Shown here: positions 2,323-57,129 of the stretch, one piece after another | How the letters are laid out: each line of letters opens with the position of its first letter | How positions within the stretch are numbered: the first letter of the stretch is position 1 | NCBI GenBank assembly: GCA_934155625.1 | Contig: CAKPHD010000001.1 | Location: 932-64,931 of the forward strand | Source of the DNA: an uncultured Clostridia bacterium | Lineage (GTDB): Bacteria > Bacillota > Clostridia > TANB77 > CAG-508 | Length of the DNA stretch: 64,000 nt | Direction: 5' to 3' | Position numbers and translations under genes: made by a program | The notes under the pieces: model-generated | What the model saw: the letters and a program-made list of their open reading frames with translations, nothing else | Database searches by the model: none | Told to the model about the DNA's origin: nothing

Positions 2323-2328
2323 AATTTT

Positions 2329-11372: not shown

Positions 11373-11571
11373 TCCTTTCCTAGGTTATGTTTTTGCTCTA
11401 CTCTAATAATTATATGCATTTTACCATAGAGGTGAAAAAAAGTACACATATTAATACAATTTTTGTCATTTTTCTTGACTTTATGTTTACTTTATGCTAA
11501 AATATTTTTGTAATTCGTTAACTTAGTTCCTTGTTTAAAGGAACTCTCTTTCAATATTGGAGGTCACATAA

Positions 11572-11883: not shown

Positions 11884-11916
11884 GAACAAAAAGAAGGAAC
11901 TGCTTGTTCCTTCTTT

Positions 11917-14079: not shown

Positions 14080-14409
14080 ATTTTTCCTACCTTTCTTTTT
14101 ATGGCTAAAGAAATCCTTTATTGTAGTTATTATTCTCAGCCATCTTTTAATTTACACCTATTTTGTTTTTACAACTTATATTTACGGCAAACCAGATATA
14201 GATTGTAACCTCTATAATACTTTAAACTTTAATATTGGCTTTTATGTTATTAGCTAAAGTGATACATTTACACTATCTGCCCAAATTTAAAACATTATAC
14301 AAGCTACCATTCTACTCTTAGTTTGTCAGCATTCATTTACTACTCTTCTTTTATTCTTCTTTTTTTATAATAATTAATTTCATAAATATTAAGCAGTAAT
14401 TAACCTAAT

Positions 14410-41058: not shown

Positions 41059-41514
41059 TTATCTTTTTATCTTTGATATATCAATTATATTTTGCATTTT
41101 TCCTACATTTGGATCTCCTAATTTTTTAGATATTGTAAGATCAAATTGTGTTAATATATCAAGTAGTTCATTATGGTCATTTTTTCTATCTTTTTCGTAT
41201 TTTTCCCAGCACTTTTCGTTTCGTTCCCAACGTTTGTCATTTTCCTCCCAACGTTTGTCGTTCTCCTCCCAACGTTTGTCATTTTCCTCCCAACGTTTGT
41301 TGTTCTCCTCCCAACGCTTGGTATTCTCTGCCCATAGTCTTTTGTTTTCCTCCCAATGAGCATTCTCAATTTCTCTACTCTTTTGTATTTCTCTCTTATT
41401 TTCTTTTATCTCAGCTCTTAACTCATTAAAAGAAGCTGTTGTTTGTAATTGAAATGTATTTAATGCTTGTCCTAGTTGTAATACTTGTTCTAGTATTTGA
41501 TCATTGTCAACCAT
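41059..41514 (-). CDS. Hypothetical coiled-coil protein with 7 tandem 8-aa repeats (N/D)xKRWEEN encoded by 24-bp DNA repeats
   Basis: AAGGAGG RBS 8 nt before the ATG at 41514. Repeat DNA at about 41212-41360. Confidence 0.6.
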   Translation of the reverse strand: MVDNDQILEQVLQLGQALNTFQLQTTASFNELRAEIKENKREIQKSREIENAHWEENKRLWAENTKRWEENNKRWEENDKRWEENDKRWEENDKRWERNEKCWEKYEKDRKNDHNELLDILTQFDLTISKKLGDPNVGKMQNIIDISKIKR

Positions 41515-41726
41515 ATTATTAACCTCCTTAAAATTTTGATTCAATCTAAAAATAGATTTAATTATTATGATGTAAAACCTCATATTGAAAAAACAATAAA
41601 TATTTGAATATAAAATAAAAATATCATAAAAAATCTGTCTACATTATACATTCTCATTTAGCTATTGTCAAGAAAATTTTTTCGACAAATTTTGACTTTT
41701 TTATACAGATAAAAAACTTTCCAAAA

Positions 41727-41811: not shown

Positions 41812-43089
41812 TTAATTATTATCAGTACCAGCTTTGCTTAGTCCTACGTTAATTGTCATACCTCCACCAAGTGAAGCGTAGTTAATACAGTCAACGTCTT
41901 GTCCTTCTAGCCATACATACATTCTCATTTTTACATATTTACCAGGTGCTATAGAGAAATTAGAAGTACCATCTTTAGCACTTTTTAAATCAGTTACATT
42001 TTCAACTCCTGCATTAGTTGTTTGAACTGTATTTTGTTTTGTTAATCCATTTACAGTTGTTGTTGCTGATTTACAATCATAAATATCTTTGATACTTCCT
42101 ACTAAATCAGTTCTTCCATCTGTATCTTTTAGTTCTTTTGCAGTAAGTGATTTTGATGTTAAAGCATATGTTGGTAATGCTGTATCAGCAGCAAATTTTC
42201 CATTTGTAATTCCTGTTGGAGCTGTATTTCCTGTTGCAGCATCAAATGATAATCTGTTATTATTTGTTACTATGTAATCAACGTGTGCAGCATATTTTGT
42301 TACAGTTTGCTCTGTTTTTTCTTCTGCACCACTAGCATTTGGCTCCCATATAGTAGCATCTGTTATGTTCTTTCCTGATACTGCATTTAAAATTGCTTGT
42401 TGGCTTGAATCTGTAGCACCAACATCTACTGCTGAAGTATCATCAAATAATGCAAAAGCTACTCTGAATGAGTTTTGAACACCTGTTGATTCTTTTGATT
42501 TTGTTTTTAAATCAATACTTGAATTGGGTTCTAGTCTAAGATTGTCTCTAGTTCCTGCTGTAATAGCTGATGCAGCTGTAGAGTTCATTAAGAATAAATC
42601 AATAGCGAAATATCCTTTATCATTTATTGTTATATCTGCATCTGTAGCAATATTCTTAATACCAGTTAATTTTATACCTGATGTGTTTGTTCCTCTGTAC
42701 ATATTAAAGTCTTGTAATCCTATACCTTCTGTCTCTTGTGCTGTTGTTGAAACTGGTAATAATTCACTTGGAACTGCATTTTCACGTCCAGCATATGGTT
42801 TCTTTAAAGATAATTTGTCAGCATCTTGTTTTCCAACATTTTCTGTTGCAAAATATGATTCCATTCCTGTGTCTGACAAATCAATTTCGTTTGCCCAGTT
42901 CTTTCCGTCTAATGATACTTGTAGACCTTCTGCTACATTTACTTTACCATCTAGTCCACTTAATGTTACGTTTTTCTGCGTAGAGAACCACGCATATGTT
43001 GATACTATCAATAAGATAGCTGTGAATGCTACTAATAAAATTAGAGCATTTAATCTTTTTCTTGAGTCTTTTTGATTTTTTTCTCTCAT
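41812..43089 (-). CDS. TasA/camelysin-superfamily secreted protein with SipW-cognate signal peptide (STYAWFS), 425 aa
   Basis: N-terminal TM followed by the AWF motif. The C-terminal strand YVWLEGQD resembles TasA FEATQWNG. Confidence 0.65.
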   Translation of the reverse strand: MREKNQKDSRKRLNALILLVAFTAILLIVSTYAWFSTQKNVTLSGLDGKVNVAEGLQVSLDGKNWANEIDLSDTGMESYFATENVGKQDADKLSLKKPYAGRENAVPSELLPVSTTAQETEGIGLQDFNMYRGTNTSGIKLTGIKNIATDADITINDKGYFAIDLFLMNSTAASAITAGTRDNLRLEPNSSIDLKTKSKESTGVQNSFRVAFALFDDTSAVDVGATDSSQQAILNAVSGKNITDATIWEPNASGAEEKTEQTVTKYAAHVDYIVTNNNRLSFDAATGNTAPTGITNGKFAADTALPTYALTSKSLTAKELKDTDGRTDLVGSIKDIYDCKSATTTVNGLTKQNTVQTTNAGVENVTDLKSAKDGTSNFSIAPGKYVKMRMYVWLEGQDVDCINYASLGGGMTINVGLSKAGTDNN

Positions 43090-43182: not shown

Positions 43183-43968
43183 TTATCTTCTGTTTTGTGA
43201 AGTATCATTTTCTTGTAATATATGTTCTTCAGTAAGAGTCATATGCATTTTTATTTCTCCACCAATCAAATCATCTTTGCATTCTGGATCATCTCCCTCT
43301 ATCCAAACAACAACAGTCCATTTATCAATGTCACCTACTTTAAAGTTTTCTGAGAAGTCTAGCATAACAGTATCATCATCCTTGAATGACACTGTATCTG
43401 GCTCAGGCTGTCCTGTTTCTCTGTTGTTTTTTGCATAAATAACTTTTTCACCATTTTTAAAGACCATAACTCTAATTGCTTCATCTACATTTTTTACTAC
43501 ATCATCTATCTTTATGGTTGTCCAATAATTTATAGTATCTTGTCCCATATTTTCTGCATAGAATGTATAAGCTATGTAGTTTCTGCCATTATGTGAACCA
43601 TCACCTTCATTGTCAATATTTTCTGGTAACCAGTTAACAGATATATCAGTAAAAAAGTCTATATCTTTTGATCTTAGGAATGTTCTAGTATATTTATTAG
43701 CTTGATCTTCATATATTACCAATCCACTCTCTCGTCCATATTCACTGTCAAGTGTTACTGTAAAATTTTCGCCTCTATAGAACATTGATAAAATAATATA
43801 TATATTTATCATAAATAATACTATTATTCCAAGCAATACTCTAAAAACTACTTGCCTAGTCTTTTTTCGTTTTTCTTTTTTTGCCTTTTCTTCTAGTTTT
43901 TGACCGGCTGTTGTTGCATCAATTTGTTCTTCAAGTGTTGGTTCGTTTTTTGTTGTATCATTCGCCAT
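43183..43968 (-). CDS. Single-pass membrane protein with a TasA-like C-terminal domain (VVVWIEGDD)
   Basis: Cytoplasmic K/E-rich N-terminus, one TM segment. The C-terminus is homologous to 41812..43089. Confidence 0.5.
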   Translation of the reverse strand: MANDTTKNEPTLEEQIDATTAGQKLEEKAKKEKRKKTRQVVFRVLLGIIVLFMINIYIILSMFYRGENFTVTLDSEYGRESGLVIYEDQANKYTRTFLRSKDIDFFTDISVNWLPENIDNEGDGSHNGRNYIAYTFYAENMGQDTINYWTTIKIDDVVKNVDEAIRVMVFKNGEKVIYAKNNRETGQPEPDTVSFKDDDTVMLDFSENFKVGDIDKWTVVVWIEGDDPECKDDLIGGEIKMHMTLTEEHILQENDTSQNRR

Positions 43969-44113: not shown

Positions 44114-44812
44114 TTACTTATTTTTTCGTATTATTGAACTTGTTATTTTTACAACAATTTCTATTGCTTTAGAAGAATCATTTTCTTCATCTTTATAAAA
44201 TTGGTAAGCATCTTTACCAAATTTTGTATCTAATATATCTTTAGCTAGATTTTCGTCATCATTTCCTGTTCCTTGATATTTCCAGCTTACATTAAATTTA
44301 ACAGTAGCTAAAGCATCTGGAGTTGTTGTATCATCTACATATTCCCCATCAATTCTTGTTTTATCGTATGTATAACTAACATTAAATGGATAAACAGTAT
44401 CATCTGCAAACAAATTAACTGTGTTACCATTAGTTTGGATTCCTCCGTCTTCTTTTAACTGATCTAACACTTCTTTTCCAAATACTTTAACAGAAGTTAT
44501 TTCACACTCAATTTTTGAACTTGTTGTGCTTAAATTACGTATGTGTACTGTATCTTCTCTATTTGGCATTCCTGGGTATAATTCATCAATTGTAAAAGTG
44601 TAATCTTCATCTAAAACTTCTTTATCCTCAACATAATATGTAACATCCCACGGTGTTATATCAGCTTCTAAGCCATTTAATTTTACTGCTTCGTTTATAT
44701 TAAACCATGCATAGGTATTTACTATTAATATTACAGAAAATATCATTACTAATCTAACCCTAGACGCAACACTTCGCTTTTTCGCTCGTCTGAATTCACG
44801 TAATATATTCAT
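44114..44812 (-). CDS. TasA/camelysin-like secreted protein with SipW-cognate signal (NTYAWFN)
   Basis: FNVSWKYQGTGND C-terminal motif. Paralogue of the N-terminal domain of 30287..31927. Confidence 0.65.
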   Translation of the reverse strand: MNILREFRRAKKRSVASRVRLVMIFSVILIVNTYAWFNINEAVKLNGLEADITPWDVTYYVEDKEVLDEDYTFTIDELYPGMPNREDTVHIRNLSTTSSKIECEITSVKVFGKEVLDQLKEDGGIQTNGNTVNLFADDTVYPFNVSYTYDKTRIDGEYVDDTTTPDALATVKFNVSWKYQGTGNDDENLAKDILDTKFGKDAYQFYKDEENDSSKAIEIVVKITSSIIRKNK

Positions 44813-44846: not shown

Positions 44847-45569
44847 TTATTCTTCCTCTGTATCATCATCGTCTTCTATTTCTTCGTCTTCTTCGTATTC
44901 GTATTCGTCATCATCATCTTCTTCATCATCATTATCTTCATCTTCGGCTTCAATCTCATCTTCGTCCTCATCATAATCTATATACTTACTAGCTTCATTC
45001 AATTTTTGAATTTTCTTCTTTTTTCTTGGACTTCTAAATGCAATAAACACATTTAAAGATAATACAATAATGATAACAAATACAGAATATATATTAGTTG
45101 CTAATTTATATAAAATAGTTAAAATATCTGATTGATACTTTACAACACCATATATTTGGTCTGCCTTAATTTGAGGATCTTCTACACTACTGCTATGCAA
45201 ACCTTTGGCATGAAAATTCAAATTTCCATTTGCATCAGTATCAATTCCAACAACACTATGCATGATTATCTTTCCATTATAATCACCATATTTTCCAAGA
45301 TATACTATATCATCTCCAACTTTTATTTTTTTAGGATCAGTCTCTTTACTAATAACAACTTCTCCAACATCATATTCCGGCTCCATACTTCCTGTAATTA
45401 CCCTGAACATCCTATATCCGGCAATTGATTTATTATTAGCTGTAACTTTTTGCATTATTATTACTGCAGCAACTATCAAGCACAATATAACAAGTATTTG
45501 ATATAATATCTTGAGTATTATTTTTATTATTCCTTTTTTATTACTCTTTGGCTTAATATTCCCCCACAT
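44847..45569 (-). CDS. sipW: Signal peptidase I, SipW/S26B type, with a 45-aa poly-acidic C-terminal tail
   Basis: ITGSMEP Ser motif. MHSVVGI His region. C-terminal TM, then a D/E-rich tail. Confidence 0.75.
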   Translation of the reverse strand: MWGNIKPKSNKKGIIKIILKILYQILVILCLIVAAVIIMQKVTANNKSIAGYRMFRVITGSMEPEYDVGEVVISKETDPKKIKVGDDIVYLGKYGDYNGKIIMHSVVGIDTDANGNLNFHAKGLHSSSVEDPQIKADQIYGVVKYQSDILTILYKLATNIYSVFVIIIVLSLNVFIAFRSPRKKKKIQKLNEASKYIDYDEDEDEIEAEDEDNDDEEDDDDEYEYEEDEEIEDDDDTEEE

Positions 45570-45584
45570 AATCTTTTCCCTCTT

Positions 45585-46193
45585 CTACACATTGTAATTA
45601 TCTCTCAGTTTCTTTAGCTCATATTTTTTTCTTTTTATTTTTCTAGTATTTTTCTGTTTATCTTTTAGACTAACTAATACATATAAAATTATTACAAAAA
45701 TCAATATATTTATAAATCCTCTTAAATTCTGTATATAATGCACTACTTTTCCGAGTTTTGGAATTGTAAATAAGACTTTTCCATAGACATTTTTAAATTC
45801 TACAGGATCTTTATCTTGTACATCATTATTATCTCCTTTTGTAATAAATTTCAAATTTTCATTTTCTTTAGTAATTTCAAATATTCTATGAGAAATTACT
45901 CTATCACCTTGTTTAAAAGTTATAATTTCGCCCTTTTTCAATTCGTCTAATTTACTTTTTTGAACAATTGCTAAATCATCTTTATAAAATGTTGGCTCCA
46001 TACTTTCTGAAACTATATTAAACATATAAATTCCTAAAACATGAGTATCTTCTTCAAAAGATAATATTAGATTAATTATAAAAAGTATTATTAAACTAAC
46101 CAGTATTATACACTTAAAAACTTTTTTTGTCATCTTTTTATTTTTTATTTTATTAGAAATTTTATCTACATCATATTCCAATTTTGCTCTCAC
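45585..46193 (-). CDS. Signal peptidase I, SipW/S26B type (second copy)
   Basis: VSESMEP, VISHRIF, C-terminal TM. Confidence 0.7.
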   Translation of the reverse strand: MRAKLEYDVDKISNKIKNKKMTKKVFKCIILVSLIILFIINLILSFEEDTHVLGIYMFNIVSESMEPTFYKDDLAIVQKSKLDELKKGEIITFKQGDRVISHRIFEITKENENLKFITKGDNNDVQDKDPVEFKNVYGKVLFTIPKLGKVVHYIQNLRGFINILIFVIILYVLVSLKDKQKNTRKIKRKKYELKKLRDNYNV

Positions 46194-46214: not shown

Positions 46215-47834
46215 TTATTTTTTTAGCATCTCTTTTACAGATGTAATATATTCTAAATCTTCTATAGAAAATTTGCTTTTTTGAATATTGTTGTAATTAT
46301 TAACAATTTTAACCTTTTTTATCAAATCTTCTATATTATCCTCTTGAAAATTCTCTTTTGAAACTTGCATTCCAAACAATTTATATTTGTCTTTTATTAT
46401 AACTGCCAATTCTTTGGTATCACTTATTTTTATATAATTGATTACTGTAAAATCAGAAAAATTAATAAAATCTCTAATTTTCTTAGCAGTTTCTCCAATT
46501 TCTTTATCTGTAATTTCTTCATTCTTTTTAATCATAGCTTTTGCCATAAACCAATAATGATTACTTGCTAGTTTTAATACATCTAATAAAGAGGATGTAT
46601 CATCTATATTTTTAACAATTCTTTGTCTTAAAATTTCATCATCTAATTGCATATATGCTTTTTTCAACTCTAAAATTAAATTATTTCTTTGTAATATAGT
46701 TGCAGTATCTTTCTTTATATTTGAATTTTTTCTACCAAATAATCCTTTTTTAGGTTTGTTAATTTTTGCATTTAATTTAAATATATCAGATTTCAATTTT
46801 TTAATATTTTCTTTAGTTAAATCATAATCTGTTTTTTTCACTTTTTTACTTTTATTTTCTTCAATCTTTTTAAGTTCTTCTTCTTTTATTTGCAATATTT
46901 CTTCAACTAGAAATCTATATTCAGAATATGTTGAATATTCATCTAAATTATCATTTAATTTTCTAATATTTTCGTCCATTTCTGCCTTTTCAGATTCTGA
47001 TAAATCAGAAATGTTTTTAGAAATTAATTCAAAATACATTTTCTGATAATTATCGCCTTTATAATCATTTATATTAAAAGCACCTGTATAAAATTTATCA
47101 AGAATGATTTTATTATCTGTAGCTTCAATAGAATTTTTCTTTTTAATTAATTCAGATTTCTTTTCTTCAACTCCCTCTGAAGTTGACTTAAATTCTTTTA
47201 ATATTTCCTCTGATTTACTTTCATAAAATTTATCAATTTCGCTTTCATATTTATCATAAATATATCTGATATTTGCATATAAATGAGCAACTACATCTGA
47301 ACATTCCCAATATACTTTTTCAAATGTGTTTTTTATTAACTCTGAATTTATGTTTCCATTTTGTGCTTCTTGTAATAAAATAACCATATATTTTTTTGAA
47401 TATTCACTTATATTAAAATCCTCTTCTGATAATCTAATTCCCACAGCCTCAAACTTTTTAACACATTCTATTAATTCAGTATTTAATCTTTCCAAATTAC
47501 TTTTATAATATCCATTTACATTGTAGATTATTTTATCAAGTCCCATTTTCTCAAATGAAGAACGAGTATCTGTATTTTTTACAGCAACATCATATTTTAA
47601 AATTTCTGTCTCTATTTGAGGAATTTCTTTGTTTTCTTCAACTGCAGTAAGTTCGTCATATCTAGTTTCAATTTCTTTTAATAAAGCTGTATTTGCTGCT
47701 TCATATTTATCTGTCATATCTTTTATAGTTTCTAATAAAGATTTTATTGCTTTTATTCCATTCCTTGGTAGAACTGAAATAACTTCTTTATCTGTTGCTA
47801 TTTGTTTTTCTACATTTTCTACTAATTCTTTCAT
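46215..47834 (-). CDS. Hypothetical cytoplasmic coiled-coil protein (539 aa)
   Basis: No TM segment or signal peptide. K/E-rich heptads. Confidence 0.5.
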   Translation of the reverse strand: MKELVENVEKQIATDKEVISVLPRNGIKAIKSLLETIKDMTDKYEAANTALLKEIETRYDELTAVEENKEIPQIETEILKYDVAVKNTDTRSSFEKMGLDKIIYNVNGYYKSNLERLNTELIECVKKFEAVGIRLSEEDFNISEYSKKYMVILLQEAQNGNINSELIKNTFEKVYWECSDVVAHLYANIRYIYDKYESEIDKFYESKSEEILKEFKSTSEGVEEKKSELIKKKNSIEATDNKIILDKFYTGAFNINDYKGDNYQKMYFELISKNISDLSESEKAEMDENIRKLNDNLDEYSTYSEYRFLVEEILQIKEEELKKIEENKSKKVKKTDYDLTKENIKKLKSDIFKLNAKINKPKKGLFGRKNSNIKKDTATILQRNNLILELKKAYMQLDDEILRQRIVKNIDDTSSLLDVLKLASNHYWFMAKAMIKKNEEITDKEIGETAKKIRDFINFSDFTVINYIKISDTKELAVIIKDKYKLFGMQVSKENFQEDNIEDLIKKVKIVNNYNNIQKSKFSIEDLEYITSVKEMLKK

Positions 47835-47985: not shown

Positions 47986-48624
47986 TTATTGATTTATATA
48001 TTGTTTAAAGTTTAAAGTTGCCCTGTAATTTAAAAGTGTATGCAACTCTTTTTCGTCTGTACTAGCTTCACCTTTGAACTCTGTATCAGCCTTATTGTTC
48101 ATAGTGCTACCTTCACCATCATTCCATCTAAATAGAACTTTTACTTCACGCTTTTTTTCACCTGAACTATTTAGTTCTGTTGTTGGATCTATTACTCCTT
48201 TAATTTCTTTAGTTTCTGTTACTGTAGATTTATCGCCATCCACAATTTCATATCCATATACCTCAAAATCTGCCAATTTAGTATTATTTAATTGTTCTAT
48301 AGAAAAGTCATATTCAAATGCTAAATCTACATATGTATAATCAATTACTAAGTCAAAATATCCAGTTCTGCCTGGAACTAAAGTATTGTTGTTGTTCATA
48401 TTTTCATCTTCAACAATAACTGGTTGAACAACTTCACTAAGTGTTGATTCCTCATGTATTACATGGTCATTTACTTTAATTAACCATCTTTTAATATGTG
48501 TATCATAAGTTGTATCAACTTTTTCAAAATATCTCGCATATGTTCTTTGTATTGATATAAATGTAATCAATAATGAGATAATACATAAAACTTGTAAAAT
48601 TCTCAACTTATTCTTTTTCTTCAT
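47986..48624 (-). CDS. TasA/camelysin-like secreted protein (212 aa), paralogue of 54112..54753
   Basis: Signal peptide followed by TYARYF. VLFRWNDGEGS resembles TasA FEATQWNG. Confidence 0.65.
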   Translation of the reverse strand: MKKKNKLRILQVLCIISLLITFISIQRTYARYFEKVDTTYDTHIKRWLIKVNDHVIHEESTLSEVVQPVIVEDENMNNNNTLVPGRTGYFDLVIDYTYVDLAFEYDFSIEQLNNTKLADFEVYGYEIVDGDKSTVTETKEIKGVIDPTTELNSSGEKKREVKVLFRWNDGEGSTMNNKADTEFKGEASTDEKELHTLLNYRATLNFKQYINQ

Positions 48625-49198
48625 TCATATGTCTCCCTTTAAATATTCTAAATCCTAGGTATATAGTTAATGGCAATATTCCACAAAAGTAAAATACATA
48701 TTTATTATTTAGTAGCATACAAATTAAAGATAAAATATATAATTTGGTTTGAACTACACCATTAATTTGACCTCCATATACAACAGGGTCTTCCAAATTA
48801 TTCGCAATACCTTTTGTATGGAATGCTTTTTGACCATCTATTTCTTCAATATCAATGACTCTGTGGGTTATAAGTAAACCTTTTACAGAACTAGCCTCAC
48901 CATGATATGTTACATCATCTCCAACTTTTATTTGGTTAATATCTTTTTCTTTTACTAAGATAACATCTCCAACATTATATTTGGGAATCATACTTCCTGT
49001 TTGAACTCTGAATATTCTATATCCAAAAAATGATTCTTTATTATTTGTTACTTTTTGTACAACTATTATTATACAAATCAAAATTATTATAATTGTTATT
49101 ATTCTTGATATAATACTTTTAATTATGTGTAATGAACGATTTTTTTTTAACGTACTTTTTGCTTCTTTTTGCTCGTTTTCTTCTCTTTTGTTTTCCAT
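48608..49198 (-). CDS. Signal peptidase I, SipW/S26B type (third copy)
   Basis: QTGSMIP, ITHRVIDI. Confidence 0.7.
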   Translation of the reverse strand: MENKREENEQKEAKSTLKKNRSLHIIKSIISRIITIIIILICIIIVVQKVTNNKESFFGYRIFRVQTGSMIPKYNVGDVILVKEKDINQIKVGDDVTYHGEASSVKGLLITHRVIDIEEIDGQKAFHTKGIANNLEDPVVYGGQINGVVQTKLYILSLICMLLNNKYVFYFCGILPLTIYLGFRIFKGRHMNEEKE

Positions 49199-49200
49199 TT

Positions 49201-50325
49201 TTATTTTAACCTCACTTCTTTTGCCTGTAACATATATTTATCAATTCTATCTTTAAATCTATCTTCTATTGGTTTTAAAGATATTAATTTTCTAGTTTTC
49301 ATAACTATAAGCTTATCTGCTATCATCTGTTTTAAATCTTTATCAGATAAATCTGGATTAAGCTCAATTATTTTTTCTATTAAATTATCTGTTAATTCTT
49401 TCCTTGCTTTATTATCTTCTACCGCACTTTTTCTTTGTCCTTTTAACTTTTCTGCAACATTATTATTCTTAAATATTAAGTGCATTAAATAGATATTTTC
49501 ATCAACTAGTTTTTTTGCAATTCCTTTTTCTTCATATTCTTTATTTGCTTTTACAGCTTTATCTTTAATTTCCATCTGGTCACTTAAATAATTCCACAAT
49601 TTAAGTGCATATTGAAAATGTACGTTTTTAAGTAATACATTTGTCATTTTTATTGGAGATTTTACAAGTGTAACCCTTTTTGAATCGAGTAATTGATATA
49701 CTGGAGTTGTTTTTAAATCTTTTAATTTCTTTTTAATATCTTGAATTCTTTGTGCTGTTCCTACTGATTTTCTAACACTTGTAGGCATCTCTGCATCATA
49801 ATTAAAATTAACTTTAATTTTTTCTTTTTTATATTTTATTTCAGCCTGATAATTAGCTTTTTGTTGATTTTTTCCTTTATAATCTGTTTGTTGACCTTTT
49901 TCACGTAAATACATATAGTCTTCTATTAATTTTATAAGACTGTATAAAAAACGGTTCTCATATGTAATAAAAGTTTCTTCTTTATACGCATTTAATATTT
50001 TTTTAGGTATTACCTCACCTGTTTGTTGGTTAAATCTATCAACATAGTTTACATTTTTAGATAAATTTTTTACACTTTCTACTGTTACTTTTTTAATTAA
50101 CTCAATTTTTATTATTTCTTCTTCTGTAATAATGTTTTTTATCTCTTTTGTTAGAGCTTTCTCTATATGAGGAAGTGAAAACTCAACCATCTCTATCCAT
50201 TCATCATTCTCTACTATTTGATTTTTATTAACATCCACCATTAACTTTGAATCAACTTTATTAAGAAATTCCTGTGATGATTGTCCAGTTTCCATATTCG
50301 CAAGTTTTATTACATCTAAGTCCAT
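49201..50325 (-). CDS. Hypothetical protein (374 aa) immediately downstream of the AAA_5 ATPase. Putative partner subunit.
   Basis: No TM segment. K/E-rich. Gene order resembles ATPase-plus-partner pairs. Confidence 0.45.
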   Translation of the reverse strand: MDLDVIKLANMETGQSSQEFLNKVDSKLMVDVNKNQIVENDEWIEMVEFSLPHIEKALTKEIKNIITEEEIIKIELIKKVTVESVKNLSKNVNYVDRFNQQTGEVIPKKILNAYKEETFITYENRFLYSLIKLIEDYMYLREKGQQTDYKGKNQQKANYQAEIKYKKEKIKVNFNYDAEMPTSVRKSVGTAQRIQDIKKKLKDLKTTPVYQLLDSKRVTLVKSPIKMTNVLLKNVHFQYALKLWNYLSDQMEIKDKAVKANKEYEEKGIAKKLVDENIYLMHLIFKNNNVAEKLKGQRKSAVEDNKARKELTDNLIEKIIELNPDLSDKDLKQMIADKLIVMKTRKLISLKPIEDRFKDRIDKYMLQAKEVRLK

Positions 50326-50354
50326 TTTTTATATCCTTTCTACAAGCTTTTATT

Positions 50355-51908
50355 TTATGACATTTTTTTCAATCTTAATAAAAATTCTATACATTCTGCC
50401 ATTTTGCCTTTTCCAAAGTTTTTATCCAAGAAGTCTATGTATCCATCAATTTCATCTCTAATTAAAGCTAAGTTTAATCCTTCAAATTTTCTTAAAACTT
50501 TTTTAGCCATGAAATAATCTACAGCTTCTGTTTCGTCTCCACCACAAGCTACATAAACAGGTACGAATTTTCTCATATGTTTTACAATACGGTTACCAAA
50601 AGCAACTCTGAAGTGCTTAATTGTATAGTTATCCATGTCATCAATTTTCTTTAAAGTAGCTGGTGAAATTGCATAATCTACCATAGCTTTTTCGAATAAT
50701 CCATTTAAGTATGAATAATTTACATCAAGTGCATCAACATCATCTGGCTCAAATGCAATACCCTTTTCGTTGATATCTATAGGCATAGCTCTATCGTATA
50801 CCTTATCTGTTACCATGAATGTAGAGTCGTCGTTGTTGATTGTTCCGATATACCAAGCATTTGGTGGAATTTGTAATTTTCCTCTTATTAATTTTTTGGG
50901 GTCTGTTGGCCATGAGCTTTGTACAACTTCAATCTTCCAATCCTTTGTGCTGTGCATTTCTAGGATTGATAACATTTCTGCAAAATAGTACTCAACACGC
51001 GCTAAGTTCATCTCGTCTAGGATTACTGTAAATATTTCATCCGTATATCCAGCTTCATATAAATATGCTAAGAAGTCTGTCTCGTTAAACTTTTTAGTGA
51101 ATTCGTTTAAGTACCCAAATATATCTGTTCTATCTCTCCAAGAGGGCTGTACTGAAGCTACACAAGATGGGTGTTTTACAAAGTTACCCCAAGCAAGTGA
51201 TATAGAGGTCTTACCTGTACCAGAGATACCCTGTAGGATAACTAGCTTTGTTGAAGCTATAGCTGATACGAATAATCTTATCATCTTTTCACTATAATAC
51301 AATTTTAATTTACTTGCAGCAAAATTTCTGAATTTATAACAAAATTCTGGTAAAGTAAATGAATTGTGATAATCTTTTTGCTTATATTTTGCATATTCTT
51401 GATCTATTAATGTTAATTTAGAGAATCTGCTTTGGCTATTAGGGTCAATTTGTTCTTCATTATTTTCTTGTGATTGAGCAGCAGCATATGCAGCTCTATC
51501 AGCACCTGTACTTATTCCATTTGGATTAACACCTAATTCTGGAGTCTTCATAGATAATAATTTTAATTTTTCATCTACAAGCTCTTCCACTTGATCATTT
51601 AAAGTATCAATTTGTTTTAATAATTCTTCTTGGTCAATAATTTTCTTTCTCCATTTCATATGTTTCTTTAAGAAAAATACAATTATTCCAACTATACTTC
51701 CAATAACTACAAGCATACAAATAATAGCCAATCCTGTCAAAAACCATTCTGACATCTTAAAATCATTTGCATAATTTTGAATTATCAAATAATATTCTGG
51801 TACATTAAATATATTTAAAATACCTTTCCATAGTCCTCCAAATATCTCTCCAAAACCTGAAAAGAATTGGTGTAAAAACTCAAATAAAAATCTTCCGTAT
51901 GTTTCCAT
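50355..51908 (-). CDS. Membrane-anchored AAA_5 (MoxR/McrB-like) ATPase: N-terminal TM helices, coiled coil, Walker A GISGTGKTS, Walker B/sensor ILDEMNLA
   Basis: Motifs read directly. DEMNLA...YFAEM matches the McrB/MoxR DEINRA...FGEL pattern. Confidence 0.65.
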   Translation of the reverse strand: METYGRFLFEFLHQFFSGFGEIFGGLWKGILNIFNVPEYYLIIQNYANDFKMSEWFLTGLAIICMLVVIGSIVGIIVFFLKKHMKWRKKIIDQEELLKQIDTLNDQVEELVDEKLKLLSMKTPELGVNPNGISTGADRAAYAAAQSQENNEEQIDPNSQSRFSKLTLIDQEYAKYKQKDYHNSFTLPEFCYKFRNFAASKLKLYYSEKMIRLFVSAIASTKLVILQGISGTGKTSISLAWGNFVKHPSCVASVQPSWRDRTDIFGYLNEFTKKFNETDFLAYLYEAGYTDEIFTVILDEMNLARVEYYFAEMLSILEMHSTKDWKIEVVQSSWPTDPKKLIRGKLQIPPNAWYIGTINNDDSTFMVTDKVYDRAMPIDINEKGIAFEPDDVDALDVNYSYLNGLFEKAMVDYAISPATLKKIDDMDNYTIKHFRVAFGNRIVKHMRKFVPVYVACGGDETEAVDYFMAKKVLRKFEGLNLALIRDEIDGYIDFLDKNFGKGKMAECIEFLLRLKKMS

Positions 51909-51911
51909 ATT

Positions 51912-52952
51912 TTATTTCATCCTTTCGACAATTACATCATCACGTTTGATTTCTTTGTACAATTTTAAATCATTTGGTACAATAACTAATTTAAACATCC
52001 TTAATTTTTCTACATCATCTGCACTCTTTAAAGTGTCATCTAATGTAATTACAAAATTATAACCTTTTTTTATGTATTCAAGCACACTTTTTTGATTTTT
52101 TATATAATCTGCATATGTAATATTTAAAATAATTTTTTCTTGTAAAGCTTGATTTCCAATTAAAGATAAAATTCCATTTAATTTCTGTTTCTTTTTAAAT
52201 AAAGAACTTTCAAATTCAGCTATATAAGTATCTTTAAAATTCCCATTAATAATATCTCTAATTGCAACTGTACTTAATAATATATATTCAATTTGCAATT
52301 TATCTTCTGCAATTATTCCTTCAGTAAAAACCTTTTCTATTGCAGAATCACTGTATTGCATTGGCATTTTTATATTATGATTTAAATAAACATAATACAT
52401 TTCTTCGTTAAACTCGGTATTTTCAAACTCTAATGAAAATTCATCTGTATCAAATTTATCTAAATACACATCTTTTTCAATCATATCATTTTTTACTTCT
52501 TTATAAAGCTGTTCTTCTATGTCTTTTGGCTTTTTTACTTCATAATATGATTCTATTAATTCTAAGATTTTTTTGATAATTTCATGTAAACTATCAATTG
52601 TCTTAAAATTTTCAATATTTCTTACATTGTCAAAAAATAACACATATCCAAAAACTTCTTTAATAATGTGAATTAAATTCAATTTAGCTTGCTTTTCATC
52701 TAAAGTCTCAGACTCTTCTTCACATTTTTCCATTAAAATATCTTCTTTATATTCTAATTCATCTAATATTCTCAAATAAAACGCCCTAGCTGGCTTGTCT
52801 GTATTTCTTATATTATAATATCTAGCATTTATATATGTTTTTAAATATTCATTAACTAATTCTTCATTATAATTTGTGTTAAATATAATTTTCATATATT
52901 TTTTTATTTTTTTCTCTGTAAAATTCAAATATGTATCCATTAAATTGTTCAT
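51912..52952 (-). CDS. Hypothetical cytoplasmic protein (346 aa), first gene of the AAA_5 trio
   Basis: ORF 4 nt from the ATPase gene. Confidence 0.45.
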   Translation of the reverse strand: MNNLMDTYLNFTEKKIKKYMKIIFNTNYNEELVNEYLKTYINARYYNIRNTDKPARAFYLRILDELEYKEDILMEKCEEESETLDEKQAKLNLIHIIKEVFGYVLFFDNVRNIENFKTIDSLHEIIKKILELIESYYEVKKPKDIEEQLYKEVKNDMIEKDVYLDKFDTDEFSLEFENTEFNEEMYYVYLNHNIKMPMQYSDSAIEKVFTEGIIAEDKLQIEYILLSTVAIRDIINGNFKDTYIAEFESSLFKKKQKLNGILSLIGNQALQEKIILNITYADYIKNQKSVLEYIKKGYNFVITLDDTLKSADDVEKLRMFKLVIVPNDLKLYKEIKRDDVIVERMK

Positions 52953-52968: not shown

Positions 52969-53036
52969 TGGGACCGCTGGGACCGGTTCTTTGCGGTACC
53001 TTTTTGGTACTTTGGGGACCGGTTCTTTGCGGTACC
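52969..53036. repeat. Two units of the dispersed repeat
   Basis: gggaccggttctttgcggtacc, twice. Confidence 0.8.
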
Positions 53037-53620
53037 TATTCTACAATTTGTTTTGCATTTATGTCTAATTTTATATATTCCATTATATCTGCATATTCTT
53101 CATATAAATAATTTTCTTTTGGAAATTTTACTTTTATAACAAAGCTATCAGTTTCATCTACTCCTTGTTTCATTTGGTTCTCATCTAATGATATCTTTTT
53201 ATAATATGTTCCATCATCATCTGTAATTATTTCTTGTTGAGCATTTAAAATTTGGCCATTTTTTACAATTTGATATTCTAATGGTAAATTAGTTGTCATT
53301 GTAAGTGTAATTCCATATTCTAAATCAGTTTCTGCTCTTTTACTAATATTTCCATCTTCTTCTTTTTTAAAATTTGATACAGAAAATGTATAATCAAATG
53401 AATTATCTGATGGATATACATCTTTTATTACAATTTTTCCTGTTTTAAAGTCATCATTTACTATCCAAAACGCAACATCTAGGTCTTTATCTGATGTTGC
53501 TGTTGTTTCATATTTAGCTAATGTTCTTCTTATAAGAATTATTGCTATTATTATTATCGCTATTAATAAAAGTACTAAAAGACTTTTTTTAACTTTCTTT
53601 TTATCAAACATTTTCATCAC
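53036..53620 (-). CDS. TasA/camelysin-like secreted protein (194 aa)
   Basis: Signal peptide followed by TLAKYET. Confidence 0.6.
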   Translation of the reverse strand: MMKMFDKKKVKKSLLVLLLIAIIIIAIILIRRTLAKYETTATSDKDLDVAFWIVNDDFKTGKIVIKDVYPSDNSFDYTFSVSNFKKEEDGNISKRAETDLEYGITLTMTTNLPLEYQIVKNGQILNAQQEIITDDDGTYYKKISLDENQMKQGVDETDSFVIKVKFPKENYLYEEYADIMEYIKLDINAKQIVE

Positions 53621-54128
53621 CTGTTTTCTCTTTGTATGAAACCAGTAATATAAATAAAATAACTGTTATACTAATTGGTATTATTACATGTACATCTGAA
53701 AATACTTTTTTCCATATTTCAACATTATTCACAATAAAAACGGTTCTACCAATAACTTCATCTTTTTTTATAGGCTCATCATATGTATTATTAAAGTCAC
53801 CTTTTGCGATTATGGTATCTCCATTTATATTTACTATTCTATGTGTAACTAACACATTTTCTTTTTGGTATGTTATAATATCATTTTCCTTTATTTCATC
53901 ACCTATTTTGATTATTACAATATCACCTTTTTCGATTGTTGGTGACATACTTCCAGTTTCTGTGCTAAGTACTGAATAGCCGAATATATCAATATATTGC
54001 TTGTGTTGTACATTTAATTGAATAAATCCCCAAATAGCAATAATGGCAATGATTCCTAATATAAATATTATTAAATTTACTATAATTTTTTTTATAACTT
54101 CAAATACTTTATTATGCTTCATTGCCAA
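53604..54128 (-). CDS. Signal peptidase I, SipW/S26B type (fourth copy)
   Basis: ETGSMSP, VTHRIVNI, C-terminal TM. Confidence 0.7.
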   Translation of the reverse strand: MAMKHNKVFEVIKKIIVNLIIFILGIIAIIAIWGFIQLNVQHKQYIDIFGYSVLSTETGSMSPTIEKGDIVIIKIGDEIKENDIITYQKENVLVTHRIVNINGDTIIAKGDFNNTYDEPIKKDEVIGRTVFIVNNVEIWKKVFSDVHVIIPISITVILFILLVSYKEKTGDENV

Positions 54129-54753
54129 TCCTTTCTCCTGTATATTGCTTAAAGTTTATCTCTAGAGGTATAGATATTTTTGCATTTTCAGTTTGTCCCA
54201 ATTCTGAATCTGTTGCATTATTTTCTTCAACATTTGCCCACTCAAAATATAATCTGACATAATTTAGATATTTGTCATTTATTTTTGATATTGGAATTAC
54301 TGCTTGATGTTGGTGTTCAGCCAATACAGTATTAATTTCTGTATTAGTAATTTGCTCTGTTCCTCCATCTTTTTTGAAATAATTTTCTACTTTAACTAAA
54401 TTCATTTTTGCAGTTTTGACATCATCTAATTTTAGATTAAGTGTATATAGAATAGACACATCTGTATTTGTTGGATCTATTAGTATATCAAAATATGCTT
54501 GTGTTCCAGGTGCTACTTTTTGACTTTTTACACGGGCAGAATCAATGTATGTTAAATTGTCTTCTGTCATTGTAAAAGTTGCATTTTCTCCACCATTAGA
54601 TATATCTACTCCATTTACTTTTATAGCCCATACACCTAATAAATTGGTATAATCTCCTTGTAGTTGGTCTTTGTATAATGCATACATATTTGCTATTTGG
54701 AACAAAGATATAATTAACATTATTAATACTAAAACTGTTAATAATTTCTTCAT
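54112..54753 (-). CDS. TasA/camelysin-like secreted protein (213 aa), paralogue of 47986..48624
   Basis: WAIKVNG, YFDILID, LYFEWANVEEN, INFKQY. Confidence 0.65.
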   Translation of the reverse strand: MKKLLTVLVLIMLIISLFQIANMYALYKDQLQGDYTNLLGVWAIKVNGVDISNGGENATFTMTEDNLTYIDSARVKSQKVAPGTQAYFDILIDPTNTDVSILYTLNLKLDDVKTAKMNLVKVENYFKKDGGTEQITNTEINTVLAEHQHQAVIPISKINDKYLNYVRLYFEWANVEENNATDSELGQTENAKISIPLEINFKQYTGERIGNEA

Positions 54754-55581
54754 TTATTTTTCCTCTTTTGCAGATTTTGTTGTTTTGGTTGTTTTTGTTG
54801 TAGCCTTTTTAGGCTTTGCTGTAGTTGCTGATTTTGTAGTTGTTGTCTTTTTTGCAGTTGTCTTTTTTGCTGATGTTTTTGAAGTTGTACTTGCTTTTTT
54901 TGTAGTTGCTGTTTTTGATGTAGGAGCTTTCTTTGTTGTAGTTTTCTTTGCTGGAGCTTTTTTTACAACTTTTACTTCTTGAACCTCTTCTTCATCTTCT
55001 GTTTCTTCGTCTTCAGAATCATCTTCATATTCTACTTCTACAGCTTCTTTTTCACGTTTCTTTTTCTTATCTCCAAGATATTTAATTTCCATTACTAAAT
55101 CAAATACTTCTTGTAAGAATAGTAATAAAGAAACAATTACTACGCAGAACAAGTATCCCCATTTAGATTCTAATAAGTTTAAAATATATCCCCATCCTTC
55201 TATAACTACTGTATCACTTGTTTTTCCTATAAAATAGTCATTTGCATAACTTTCTTCATTTTCAACAGCATAAATTATATGGCTTCCTTGTTGTGTTTTT
55301 TCTTGTAAAGTTCTACTTACAACTTCATATTGTTGGCTATTAATTACTTTATATAGTAATATTTCATCTCCACTTTTAACATTTCTGTCATTTGTTTTTT
55401 TGATTAATAATATAGATCCTTGTTTATATTCAGGTTCTAATGAATCATCTTTTACTATATAAACAGTATATCCTCCTAATTCACTATTATTATAGTCATT
55501 ATATGACAATAACAATACTGTAACTGTAATTGCAATTATGGCATATAACACAAATAATATACTACCTAATGCTTTTTTCAT
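54754..55581 (-). CDS. SipW-like S26B paralogue lacking the catalytic His (VVSRT in place of VTHRV), with acidic and K/T-rich C-terminal tails. Probable pseudo-peptidase.
   Basis: DDSLEP Ser box present, His box substituted, C-terminal low-complexity KKTT repeats. Confidence 0.55.
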   Translation of the reverse strand: MKKALGSILFVLYAIIAITVTVLLLSYNDYNNSELGGYTVYIVKDDSLEPEYKQGSILLIKKTNDRNVKSGDEILLYKVINSQQYEVVSRTLQEKTQQGSHIIYAVENEESYANDYFIGKTSDTVVIEGWGYILNLLESKWGYLFCVVIVSLLLFLQEVFDLVMEIKYLGDKKKKREKEAVEVEYEDDSEDEETEDEEEVQEVKVVKKAPAKKTTTKKAPTSKTATTKKASTTSKTSAKKTTAKKTTTTKSATTAKPKKATTKTTKTTKSAKEEK

Positions 55582-56261: not shown

Positions 56262-57129
56262 TTATTTGTTTGTCACATTAACAACCGCATTCGCATCTCC
56301 GGAAGGATAAGTATAATCTTTGGACATATCAACTTTATAAAATTTAATATACTGTGTAGACTCTTTATTCATATTAAAAGTATATTTTTTTACATACCCT
56401 TTCGAATCTGTTACTTCACTTCCTGCAACCCTGTTCACATAAGAATCATCTGCTAAATCAACTCTTACTACATCAGAATCAAACTCTATAGTTACAGGAT
56501 TTCCACTATCTTGTGCATTTACAACTTTTAGCACAGCATAATTTCTATTTGCAACATCATCTATAGTATAAGTATTAACAGTCTCCTGTTGCACCCTTAA
56601 AACAACCTCACAAGAAATCTCTTTTTGATAAGGAACCTTAGTGCTAGCCTTAATCTTTACTCTAATAGTCTGATTTTTCTCAATTGGGCTTTTTGGAGTA
56701 ACCATTACCATAACTTTACTAAGATTATTTACAACATCTCCTATTTTAGCATATATAACTCCAGTTGTAGAAGTAAGTCCATCAGCTGCATTAATACCGT
56801 AGAGTTACTTTATCAGCATCAGGAGTTTCGCAAGAAACTGAATAATCCAAATCATACTCCATTCTGCTTAAAGTATTAGCATAACTATATAAATCAAAGC
56901 TTATATTATATGTATCAACACCTCCCCAATCCTCATATTGATATGTTGGATTGTTAAGTGTCAATAAATTACTGGTAAAATAAAACTTTCTTGAAGTAAA
57001 ATAAGCTTCTCTTATTCCATTATAAACATATCTTCCAAAAACTGATAATGTCACTATTATAATTAAAATAAATATTACTATAGCAATTTTAAATTTATTT
57101 AATTTTCTATGTCTTTTTGTTTTATTCAT
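56262..57129 (-). pseudogene. TasA/camelysin-like gene split by an apparent frameshift at about 56790 (ORFs 56791..57129 and 56262..56711). The N-terminal part carries a signal peptide and REAYF motif.
   Basis: The downstream frame is open right up to the upstream stop. There is no RBS or start for the second part. Confidence 0.5.

What the first reader, a model, noticed from the sequence alone, without database searches (positions are those of the whole stretch)
49201..52952. Membrane-anchored AAA_5 (MoxR/McrB-like) ATPase trio embedded in the fibre locus
The 517-aa protein has N-terminal TM helices, a coiled coil, and a AAA_5 core (GISGTGKTS; ILDEMNLA...YFAEM). It sits between a 346-aa cytoplasmic protein and a 374-aa partner (4-nt and 30-nt junctions).

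Its position inside a secretion/fibre locus, rather than beside a nuclease, argues for an assembly or quality-control role, or a secretion-energising role, over McrBC-type restriction. A defence-island interloper cannot be excluded.
Basis: partly seen in the sequence, partly recalled or inferred. Interest (0 to 1): 0.7.

Follow-up and report, generated by a model that had tools for sequence, protein, structure and literature searches.

The report
Nuclease-less McrBC module in fibre locus
Three tightly packed genes inside a surface-fibre gene cluster encode a membrane-tethered relative of the McrBC restriction motor that lacks any detectable DNA-cutting domain and seems to have been recruited to build or control the fibres; this class ("CoCoPALM") was named in 2024 but has never been characterised.

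Summary

The trio is syntenic with SipW-type signal peptidases wherever the flanks are informative: in all 33 related MAG loci and in 5 of 6 distant contexts (34–45% identity, GC 31–57%). The GTPase is the best-conserved gene of the locus. In one genome a SipW peptidase is fused to the 346-aa homologue. No phage or plasmid record carries the membrane-type protein.

[quoted passage not shown] (eLife 2024) named in three sentences and never followed up. The function itself is inferred, and TasA homology of the secreted proteins could not be confirmed. Verdict: a new member of a known but uncharacterised kind.

The parts
51912..52952 (-). P346: 346-aa cytoplasmic protein with an N-terminal helical bundle (aa ~4-156), a beta-hairpin, and a C-terminal degenerate EAL-like alpha/beta domain (aa ~168-346).
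50355..51908 (-). ATP517: membrane-anchored McrB-like AAA+ GTPase (TM, coiled coil, linker, NxD-type core).
   Evidence: ORF. PADLOC PDC-M26A core match, E 2.5e-35. A family profile hits E. coli McrB as its top 3 PDB sequences. It is the most conserved gene of the locus.
51669..51746 (-). Transmembrane helix of ATP517 (aa 55-80), followed by a positively charged stretch, so the GTPase is predicted to be cytoplasmic.
51549..51647 (-). Heptad/coiled-coil segment of ATP517 (aa ~88-120).
   Evidence: Heptad register. Faint DivIC/FtsL-type hits on the equivalent TM plus coiled-coil segment of orthologues.
51204..51230 (-). Walker A motif, GISGTGKTS.
   Evidence: G227, G230, G232 and K233 are invariant in 44 family representatives.
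51003..51023 (-). Walker B region, ILDEMNL (D298/E299, N301; R304 follows).
   Evidence: invariance.
50826..50837 (-). McrB signature motif in its NxD form: N358-N-D360, followed by D361.
   Evidence: N358 and D360 are invariant; position 361 is D in 34, E in 9 and Q in 1 of the representatives.
49201..50325 (-). P374: McrC homologue with the N-terminal (DUF2357) domain only, a long beta-hairpin (aa 149-184) and a helical C-terminal half; no nuclease detected.
49813..50148 (-). DUF2357-matching segment of P374 (aa 60-171), including the conserved YENRF...LI core.
48608..49198 (-). SipW196: SipW/archaeal-type signal peptidase I, 2 nt downstream of P374.
   Evidence: TIGR02228 84.8 bits against a cutoff of 51.85. 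It follows the P374 homologue in every related locus whose sequence extends downstream of that gene.
53604..54128 (-). SipW174: SipW-type signal peptidase paralogue.
   Evidence: TIGR02228 63.8 bits.
45585..46193 (-). SipW202: SipW-type signal peptidase paralogue.
   Evidence: TIGR02228 108.7 bits.
44847..45569 (-). SipW240: SipW-type peptidase paralogue with a poly-acidic cytoplasmic tail.
   Evidence: TIGR02228 64.0 bits; tail.
54754..55581 (-). SipW275: divergent SipW-like paralogue that lacks the catalytic His and has a long K/T-rich tail.
   Evidence: Sub-cutoff hits; alignment.
53036..53620 (-). Small secreted protein 'TasA194', immediately upstream of P346.
   Evidence: Member of a paralogous superfamily. 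TasA homology not detected.
47986..48624 (-). Small secreted protein 'TasA212'.
54112..54753 (-). Small secreted protein 'TasA213'.
44114..44812 (-). Small secreted protein 'TasA232'.
46215..47834 (-). CC539: 539-aa K/E-rich protein, apparently coiled-coil from its composition (no prediction was run), conserved in close and mid relatives only.
   Evidence: no family hit.
43183..43968 (-). A_261: N-terminally anchored membrane protein and the second most conserved gene of the locus. Its homologues co-occur with the module in distant loci.
57232..63888 (-). Giant 2218-aa G/S/T/N-rich repetitive protein at the head of the locus; a surface or fibre-associated role is presumed from composition and position and was not tested.
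   Evidence: no family hit.

Best explanation
The trio is a CoCoPALM-type module. It is a McrBC restriction motor that has exchanged its DNA-binding domain for a membrane anchor plus coiled coil. No nuclease is detectable, and a helical or coiled-coil tail stands where canonical McrC carries one. It is a fixed component of a SipW-dependent surface-fibre (pilus) operon rather than a defence system.

Shown here: ATP517 is a McrB-clade AAA+ NTPase with intact Walker A, Walker B and NxD sensor, tethered to the membrane by a TM helix. P374 is a McrC N-domain homologue. P346 has an EAL-like fold. All three are co-linear with SipW peptidases across deep divergence.

Inferred by analogy with McrBC structures: ATP517 forms a hexameric ring under the membrane, and P374 inserts its beta-hairpin/stalk into the ring and stimulates GTP hydrolysis.

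Inferred from the SipW::P346 fusion and the long cytoplasmic tails of the SipW paralogues: P346 bridges the ring to the C-terminal membrane anchors of the SipW peptidases.

My committed reading is that GTP-driven conformational cycling of the ring is transmitted through the coiled coils and TM helices. This would gate or energise the processing and polymerisation of the ~200-aa secreted subunits at a dedicated assembly site. It would be functionally analogous to the cytoplasmic ATPase-platform pairs of type IV pili and type II secretion. The EAL-like protein (or true EAL/GGDEF enzymes in other lineages) would supply a c-di-GMP-type or protein-binding input.
For: Identity:
- PADLOC core match, E 2.5e-35.
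- The family profile's top 3 PDB hits are McrB, spanning Walker A, Walker B and the signature motif.
- N358-x-D360 is invariant and followed by D/E, as described for the NxD branch in PMC11090510.
- No nuclease was found; the long orthologues end in coiled coil.
- The features match the published CoCoPALM description: TM plus coiled coil fused to the GTPase, signal-peptidase association, and coiled coils on both McrB and McrC homologues.

Integration with the fibre locus:
- Gene order is the same across the 33 loci, each as far as its sequence extends.
- SipW lies next to the membrane-type GTPase in L034, L039, L041/42, L044 and L060, with GC from 31 to 57% and GTPase identity of 34-45%.
- The GTPase is the most conserved gene: median identity 93/75/58% against 51-82/31-61/25-50% for all others.
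- Spacers of 2-29 nt, and a 15-nt spacer upstream of P346 in a close relative, point to one operon.
- The SipW::P346 fusion ORF in L029.
- No full-length membrane type in phage, plasmid or viral collections.

c-di-GMP link:
- A canonical EAL gene sits between the GTPase and McrC-N genes in L034, and GGDEF plus two EAL genes sit in the L039 cluster.
Against: - There are no experimental data, so the role is inferred from genomic context.
- Both AF2 models are weak (pLDDT 56 and 66). The EAL-like call rests on fold alone: Pfam and hhalign are negative and the catalytic residues are not conserved.
- The secreted proteins could not be shown to be TasA homologues. Known TasA-type fibres assemble by donor-strand exchange, and the papers consulted mention no dedicated conserved NTPase, so the need for a motor is unexplained.
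- The wider ATPase family includes members in defence-island contexts (L036-38).
- The 33 syntenic loci come from a few related gut lineages, so they are not independent events.
- Only six distant contexts were sampled. One of them (L043) places the trio right after a phage holin/lysis cassette with no SipW visible before the contig ends.
- The SipW::P346 fusion is seen in a single MAG contig.
Confidence: 0.6

Rival explanations
1. The module is a regulatory switch rather than a mechanical assembly motor. The membrane-tethered GTPase, its McrC-like activator and the EAL-like protein would form a nucleotide- or second-messenger-dependent checkpoint. It would turn SipW processing, or transcription of the locus, on and off without doing work on the fibre.
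For: - P346 resembles degenerate EAL receptors and adaptors such as LapD, FimX and YdiV.
- Canonical EAL/GGDEF genes lie in the L034 and L039 clusters.
- SipW is fused to the P346 homologue in L029.
- From my own knowledge, not tested here: the C-terminal tail of B. subtilis SipW has a peptidase-independent regulatory role in biofilm gene expression.
- The TasA-type fibre papers consulted (B. subtilis TasA, archaeal bundling pili) describe donor-strand-exchange assembly and mention no dedicated conserved NTPase.
Against: - A hexameric AAA+ ring with an activator plug is an elaborate device for a simple switch.
- The GTPase, not the sensor-like P346, is by far the most conserved part.
- P346 is missing or replaced in several distant loci, while the GTPase/McrC-N/SipW core persists.
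- The c-di-GMP-binding residues are not conserved.
Confidence: 0.22
2. It is a defence-island interloper: a McrBC-derived anti-phage or abortive-infection system (PDC-M26-like) that happens to sit in, or guards, the fibre locus, for example by sensing phage entry at a pilus receptor.
For: - The only curated-library hit for the ATPase is a PADLOC defence-candidate model.
- Non-membrane relatives sit with a DUF2357 partner among kinase, helicase and methylase genes (L036-38).
- In L043 the trio follows phage lysis genes.
- The AAA core family is common on plasmids.
Against: - The PADLOC match covers only the AAA core (profile positions 314-434 of 724), and the partner proteins hit nothing.
- No nuclease or other recognisable effector was found.
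- There is no DNA-binding N-domain.
- Synteny with SipW holds across the related loci (as far as each extends) and across distant lineages, and the GTPase is the most conserved gene. Defence systems are typically patchy and fast-evolving.
- No membrane-type copy appears in phage, plasmid or viral collections.
Confidence: 0.1
3. It is a membrane-protein quality-control or extraction machine (FtsH- or Cdc48-like logic). The ring would pull uncleaved signal-anchored precursors, cleaved signal peptides or stalled subunits out of the membrane around the five SipW peptidases.
For: - It is a membrane-tethered AAA+ ring next to many signal-anchored substrates and multiple peptidases.
- The related second architecture pairs two TM-McrB genes with membrane-anchored transglutaminase-core and giant proteins.
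Against: - In McrBC structures the central pore is occupied by McrC, and a McrC-N homologue is conserved here. That argues against substrate threading.
- There is no protease domain and no pore-loop evidence.
- This reading is entirely speculative.
Confidence: 0.08

Closest known systems
[quoted passage not shown]
   Same: An NxD-type McrB-like GTPase fused N-terminally to a TM helix plus coiled coil; a DUF2357 McrC homologue with a helical or coiled-coil extension; and genomic association with signal-peptidase-family proteins.
   Different: The published description is three sentences long, and no follow-up was found. It does not mention an EAL-like third component, SipW fusions, c-di-GMP enzymes, the number of SipW paralogues or the conservation ranking. 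FtsB homology of the N-terminus could not be reproduced here (only faint DivIC/FtsL hits).
Canonical McrBC type IV restriction enzyme (E. coli, T. gammatolerans; PDB 6hz4, 6ut6, 6ut5)
   Same: The AAA+ core with Walker A, Walker B and an Asn/Asp signature motif, and a partner with the McrC N-terminal domain that binds and activates the ring.
   Different: The signature is NxD instead of NxxD. The DNA-binding N-domain is replaced by TM plus coiled coil. No PD-(D/E)xK nuclease is detectable in the McrC homologue. The context is a surface-fibre operon, not a restriction or defence island.
CoCoNuT systems (coiled-coil nuclease tandems; same paper)
   Same: The NxD branch of McrB GTPases, with coiled coils fused to the McrB and McrC homologues.
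   Different: CoCoNuTs keep nucleases and have RNA-binding domains and defence contexts. Here there is no nuclease, there is a membrane anchor, and the context is a SipW locus.
PADLOC candidate defence system PDC-M26
   Same: The AAA core matches the PDC-M26A model, E 2.5e-35.
   Different: Only profile positions ~314-434 of 724 match. The partner proteins hit no PADLOC model. Every family member, whatever its context, gives the same core-only hit.
B. subtilis tapA-sipW-tasA and C. perfringens sipW-bsaABC matrix-fibre operons; archaeal bundling pili
   Same: Dedicated SipW-type signal peptidases are encoded next to several ~200-aa secreted paralogues.
   Different: The papers consulted describe no dedicated conserved NTPase in those operons. 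Here there are five SipW paralogues plus a conserved GTPase/McrC-N/EAL-like trio. TasA homology of the subunits was not detectable here.
Degenerate EAL-domain receptors and adaptors (LapD, FimX, YdiV/STM1697)
   Different: There is no sequence-level EAL signal. The domain is shorter (~155 aligned residues). The N-terminal helical bundle is unrelated. c-di-GMP binding is untested.

Membership tests
CoCoPALM (Bell et al. 2024) | McrB-like GTPase of the NxD signature branch | tested here: met
   N358 and D360 are invariant in 44 diverse family representatives, and position 361 is D, E or Q. McrB is the top PDB hit.
CoCoPALM (Bell et al. 2024) | GTPase fused to an FtsB-like transmembrane plus coiled-coil N-terminal domain | tested here: inconclusive
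   The TM helix (aa 55-80) and heptad segment (aa ~88-120) are present. Only sub-threshold DivIC/FtsL_2 hits appear in orthologues, E 0.013-0.2. The architecture is met, but homology to FtsB is not shown.
CoCoPALM (Bell et al. 2024) | Genomic association with signal-peptidase-family proteins | tested here: met
   Five SipW-type paralogues lie in the locus. Adjacency is conserved in the related loci wherever the flanks extend far enough, and in 5 of 6 distant contexts.
CoCoPALM (Bell et al. 2024) | McrC homologue (DUF2357) carrying a coiled-coil region | tested here: met
Canonical McrBC restriction system | NxxD GTPase signature | tested here: not met
   The invariant Asp is at +2, not +3, and the +3 position varies between D, E and Q.
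Canonical McrBC restriction system | N-terminal DNA-binding domain on McrB | tested here: not met
   The N-terminus is TM plus coiled coil, and no DNA-binding domain appears in Pfam or NCBIfam.
Canonical McrBC restriction system | PD-(D/E)xK nuclease domain in McrC | tested here: not met
   There is no nuclease hit in Pfam for P374 or its 623-668-aa orthologues. The C-terminal half is helical or coiled coil. Caveat: the model pLDDT is only 56.
MoxR AAA+ ATPases | MoxR-type AAA core with a VWA-domain partner | tested here: not met
   No MoxR or AAA_3 hit. The best solved relative is McrB. No VWA domain was found in any locus protein scanned.
PADLOC PDC-M26 candidate defence system | Full-length match to subunit A together with the cognate partner subunit(s) | tested here: not met
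   The match covers the core only (profile 314-434 of 724), and the partner proteins give no PADLOC hit.
SipW/TasA-type fibre operon | Dedicated SipW (archaeal-type) signal peptidase I | tested here: met
   TIGR02228 scores of 63.8-108.7 bits against a cutoff of 51.85 for four paralogues. Catalytic Ser and His are present in four of the five.
SipW/TasA-type fibre operon | TasA/camelysin (Peptidase_M73, jelly-roll) subunit | tested here: inconclusive
   A profile of 28 family members hits no TasA structure and no Pfam family.
EAL domain (PF00563), for P346 | EAL fold | tested here: met
EAL domain (PF00563), for P346 | Sequence-profile match and catalytic/c-di-GMP-binding motifs (EAL, N, ExxE, DDFG, KxD, EGVE) | tested here: not met
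   No Pfam hit. hhalign against true EAL proteins gives a probability of 0.3%. Only D305 is invariant in the family.

The most novel reading that the evidence does not exclude
SipW-dependent fibres in these Bacillota would be the first TasA-type (donor-strand) surface filaments built with a dedicated cytoplasmic NTPase. A restriction-enzyme motor (McrBC) would have been exapted into a membrane-tethered, GTP-driven pilus assembly or retraction engine. It would be wired to SipW peptidases through an EAL-derived adaptor and thereby to c-di-GMP signalling. That would make it a new class of Gram-positive pilus machinery.
Probability: 0.3. Interest if true: 0.85.

Novelty: new member of a known kind. 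Interest (0 to 1): 0.55.

Why it matters
McrBC is the textbook GTP-driven restriction motor. A branch with no detectable nuclease, carrying a membrane anchor and locked into surface-fibre operons, would be a clear case of a defence machine exapted for cell-envelope biogenesis. TasA-type fibres are currently thought to self-assemble outside the cell without any NTPase. A conserved GTPase that is the most constrained gene of such a locus challenges that picture for these abundant, uncultured gut Bacillota.

The class has only a name in the literature. This window adds concrete, testable anatomy:
- a nuclease-less McrC plug;
- an EAL-like third subunit;
- a natural SipW fusion that points to the physical partner;
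- recurrent EAL/GGDEF neighbours that suggest c-di-GMP control.

Tried and rejected
- Single-sequence PDB searches for ATP517 and P374 gave nothing useful. A family profile was needed to reach McrB.
- The MoxR reading was rejected: no MoxR or VWA signals, and McrB is the top hit.
- I first read the motif NNDD as canonical NxxD. Family conservation shows it is NxD followed by D/E.
- Membership of PDC-M26 was rejected as a core-only match.
- Sequence-level support for P346 as an EAL domain failed: a profile against the PDB, hhalign against true EAL proteins and Pfam.
- The partial ORF in L044 that looked EAL-like by eye was not supported.
- TasA homology of the small secreted proteins was not detectable with a 28-sequence profile.
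- I suspected the GC-rich spacer upstream of P346 of being a c-di-GMP riboswitch. There is no Rfam hit, even at E up to 10. It is a dispersed strain-specific repeat.
- The promoter/terminator scan was uninformative: counts equal the shuffled expectation.
- The 'McrB' mention in the C. perfringens BsaA paper is only an E. coli strain genotype.
- The supplements of the CoCoNuT paper held as text contain nothing on CoCoPALM.
- Phage, plasmid and viral-contig searches found only distant AAA cores.

Full report
OBSERVATION

The three ORFs lie on the minus strand exactly where stated: P346 at 51912-52952, ATP517 at 50355-51908 and P374 at 49201-50325. They are separated by 3 and 29 nt. A SipW-type peptidase gene follows after 2 nt. 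The quoted motifs are present. ATP517 has one strong TM helix at aa 55-80, followed by a basic stretch, and a heptad segment at aa ~88-120. The window is AT-rich (GC 0.22-0.33) and almost all its genes are on the minus strand. Each protein has hundreds to thousands of close homologues in public assemblies, annotated at best as 'hypothetical protein'. The genes are therefore real.

WHAT THE THREE PROTEINS ARE

ATP517
- It has no Pfam hit. Its core matches the PADLOC model PDC-M26A at E 2.5e-35.
- A search of 1.84 billion representative proteins found 8,249 relatives. These share aa ~150-515 and have varied N-termini.
- A profile of 44 diverse relatives has E. coli McrB (6hz4, 6ut6, 7vsr) as its top three PDB hits. 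The alignment runs through Walker A, Walker B and the signature motif.
- Across the family, G227/G230/G232/K233, D298, N301, R304, N358 and D360 are invariant. Position 361 is D, E or Q.
- The signature is therefore NxD followed by D/E. This is the variant Bell et al. use to define the CoCoNuT/CoCoPALM branch of McrB GTPases (PMC11090510). The protein is McrB-clade, not MoxR.

P374
- It matches Pfam DUF2357, the McrC N-terminal domain, at E 1.5e-7.
- The model has a long beta-hairpin at aa 149-184 and a helical C-terminal half.
- No nuclease is detectable. Orthologues of 623-668 aa extend only by E/K/R/A-rich coiled coil.
- The conserved core is YENRF..LI, SPIKxTNVxLKN and LW.

P346
- It has no sequence-level family.
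- Its AF2 model (pLDDT 66, and 77-88 in the C-terminal domain) shows a helical bundle followed by an alpha/beta domain.
- The catalytic residues are not conserved. Only D305, in 'ITLDD', is invariant. Profile-profile comparison with true EAL proteins is not significant.
- I therefore call it a degenerate EAL-like fold, with moderate confidence.

CONTEXT

The locus runs from about 41 kb to at least 63.9 kb and ends at housekeeping genes, RNase J1 and GltX. It contains:
- five SipW/archaeal-type signal peptidase paralogues, four above the TIGR02228 cutoff;
- a paralogous superfamily of ~200-aa secreted proteins plus p425;
- a 539-aa K/E-rich protein that looks coiled-coil from its composition;
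- a conserved membrane protein, A_261;
- a 2218-aa repetitive protein.

TasA homology of the secreted proteins could not be shown.

CONSERVATION

A scan of one genome per species returned 33 loci. All are from uncultured gut Clostridia/Bacilli MAGs, and one is a closed 1.55-Mb chromosome. Gene order around the trio is the same in every locus, as far as each locus extends. The GTPase is by far the most conserved gene. Its median identity in close, mid and far loci is 93/75/58%, against 51-82/31-61/25-50% for all other genes.

Membrane-type representatives at 34-45% identity were looked up on their contigs. GC there ranges from 27 to 57%.
- L034/35, L039/40, L041/42, L044 and L060 all have a SipW peptidase adjacent. 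All but the short L044 contig also show a P374 homologue, and most show TasA-family or A_261 homologues.
- L043 carries P346-like, GTPase and P374-like genes directly after a phage holin/lysis cassette. The contig ends 1.4 kb further on, so it is unresolved.
- In L029 a single 711-aa ORF fuses a SipW peptidase (aa 21-163; TIGR02228 68.8 bits) through a charged linker to a P346 homologue (aa 354-650; E 2e-17). This is Rosetta-stone evidence for a physical link between P346 and SipW.
- L034 has a canonical EAL gene (181 bits) between the GTPase and the McrC-N gene. L039 has a GGDEF gene and two EAL genes in the cluster.

By contrast, a 720-aa non-membrane relative sits with a 592-aa DUF2357 partner among kinase, PP2C, helicase and methylase genes. 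That is a defence-island context.

No phage, plasmid or viral contig carries the membrane type. The PADLOC hit is core-only for every family member, and the partner proteins hit nothing.

LITERATURE

Bell, Makarova, Wolf and Koonin (eLife 2024; preprint 2023) describe, in three sentences, 'CoCoPALM' systems. These are NxD GTPases fused to an FtsB-like TM plus coiled-coil domain. [quoted passage not shown] The authors deferred the class to a later publication. No follow-up is in the library, and the held supplements say nothing more. The papers consulted on TasA, BsaA and archaeal bundling pili describe no dedicated conserved NTPase.

The window's trio meets the CoCoPALM features I could test. 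Only FtsB homology as such stays inconclusive.

MECHANISM

Shown: the domain identities, the intact NTPase motifs, the membrane tether, the absence of a detectable nuclease, the operon packing and the deep linkage to SipW.

Inferred from McrBC structures: a hexameric ring activated by the P374 stalk.

Inferred from the fusion and from the long charged cytoplasmic tails of SipW240 and SipW275: P346 couples the ring to the SipW membrane anchors.

My committed reading is a GTP-driven assembly or gating platform for SipW-processed fibre subunits, with an EAL-derived input (confidence 0.6 for 'integral fibre-locus machine, not defence').

Rivals:
- a purely regulatory switch (0.22);
- a defence interloper (0.10);
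- a membrane-protein extraction or quality-control machine (0.08).

VERDICT

- the protein is McrB-type, not MoxR;
- the 374-aa partner is a nuclease-less McrC homologue;
- 'TasA' is unverified.

This is a new member of a named but uncharacterised kind. The new details are the EAL-like third subunit, the SipW fusion, the c-di-GMP gene neighbours, the conservation ranking, and a sister architecture with transglutaminase-core proteins.

Noticed in passing
window 52979-53000 and 53015-53036 (minus strand); also 15897, 20105, 33265/33303/33338, 35835, 41728, 57170: A GC-rich 22-nt repeat, GGTACCGCAAAGAACCGGTCCC (a possible small hairpin), occurs 10 times in the window against 0 expected. The copies examined lie in gene spacers. 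Two fill the 83-nt spacer upstream of P346. Others lie between the giant protein and p112, and between the genes at 41059-41583 and 41812-43089. There is no Rfam match. The repeat is absent from all related loci, whose equivalent spacer is as short as 15 nt; L020 and L002 carry different insertions there. It looks like a strain-specific REP/MITE-like element that targets sub-operon boundaries.
   Followed up: partly
L029:7863-9998 (+): A 711-aa ORF fuses a SipW-type signal peptidase (aa 21-163) through a ~200-aa charged linker to a P346 homologue (aa 354-650). It is seen in a single MAG contig and needs read-level confirmation.
   Followed up: yes
L045, L046, L047, L048: A sister architecture of membrane-anchored NxD McrB relatives: TM-McrB, a McrC-N protein (505-604 aa) and a second TM-McrB, followed by membrane-anchored transglutaminase-core proteins (908-1292 aa) and giant proteins. 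No SipW hit was found among the adjacent genes examined. This suggests a wider envelope-associated radiation of nuclease-less McrBC derivatives.
   Followed up: partly
L043:4623-8267: P346-like (384 aa), GTPase (500 aa) and P374-like (324 aa) genes sit directly downstream of a phage-type holin and a 251-aa gene that may encode a lysis enzyme. The contig ends before any SipW could be seen. This is the only context that could support mobility or a defence role.
   Followed up: partly
window 54754-55581 (minus strand): The SipW275 paralogue keeps the catalytic Ser but has Ser in place of the catalytic His ('VVSRT' against 'THR/SHR'). It also carries a ~130-aa K/T/E-rich cytoplasmic tail. SipW240 (44847-45569) has a ~45-aa poly-acidic tail. 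These may be non-catalytic or scaffolding paralogues.
   Followed up: partly
window 56262-56711 and 56791-57129 (minus strand): p149 and p112 correspond to one continuous ~306-aa ORF in L028 and in the distant loci (L023-L027). The gene therefore appears split in this window, by a frameshift, a stop codon or a sequencing error.
   Followed up: no
window 43183-43968 (minus strand): A_261 is an uncharacterised, N-terminally anchored membrane protein and the second most conserved gene of the locus (82/61/50% median identity). Its homologues co-occur with the module in the distant loci L039, L042 and L044. It may be another core component.
   Followed up: partly
L034:3396-4373; L039:485-1690, 2235-3098, 11446-14295: Canonical EAL (65-181 bits) and GGDEF (125 bits) genes are embedded in distant CoCoPALM/SipW clusters. 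This suggests c-di-GMP control of these loci.
   Followed up: partly
window 46215-47834 (minus strand): CC539, a 539-aa K/E-rich protein that looks coiled-coil from its composition and has no family hit, sits between SipW202 and 'TasA212'. It is conserved in close and mid relatives but absent from the far loci. It is a possible partner for the coiled coils of the McrB and McrC homologues.
   Followed up: no
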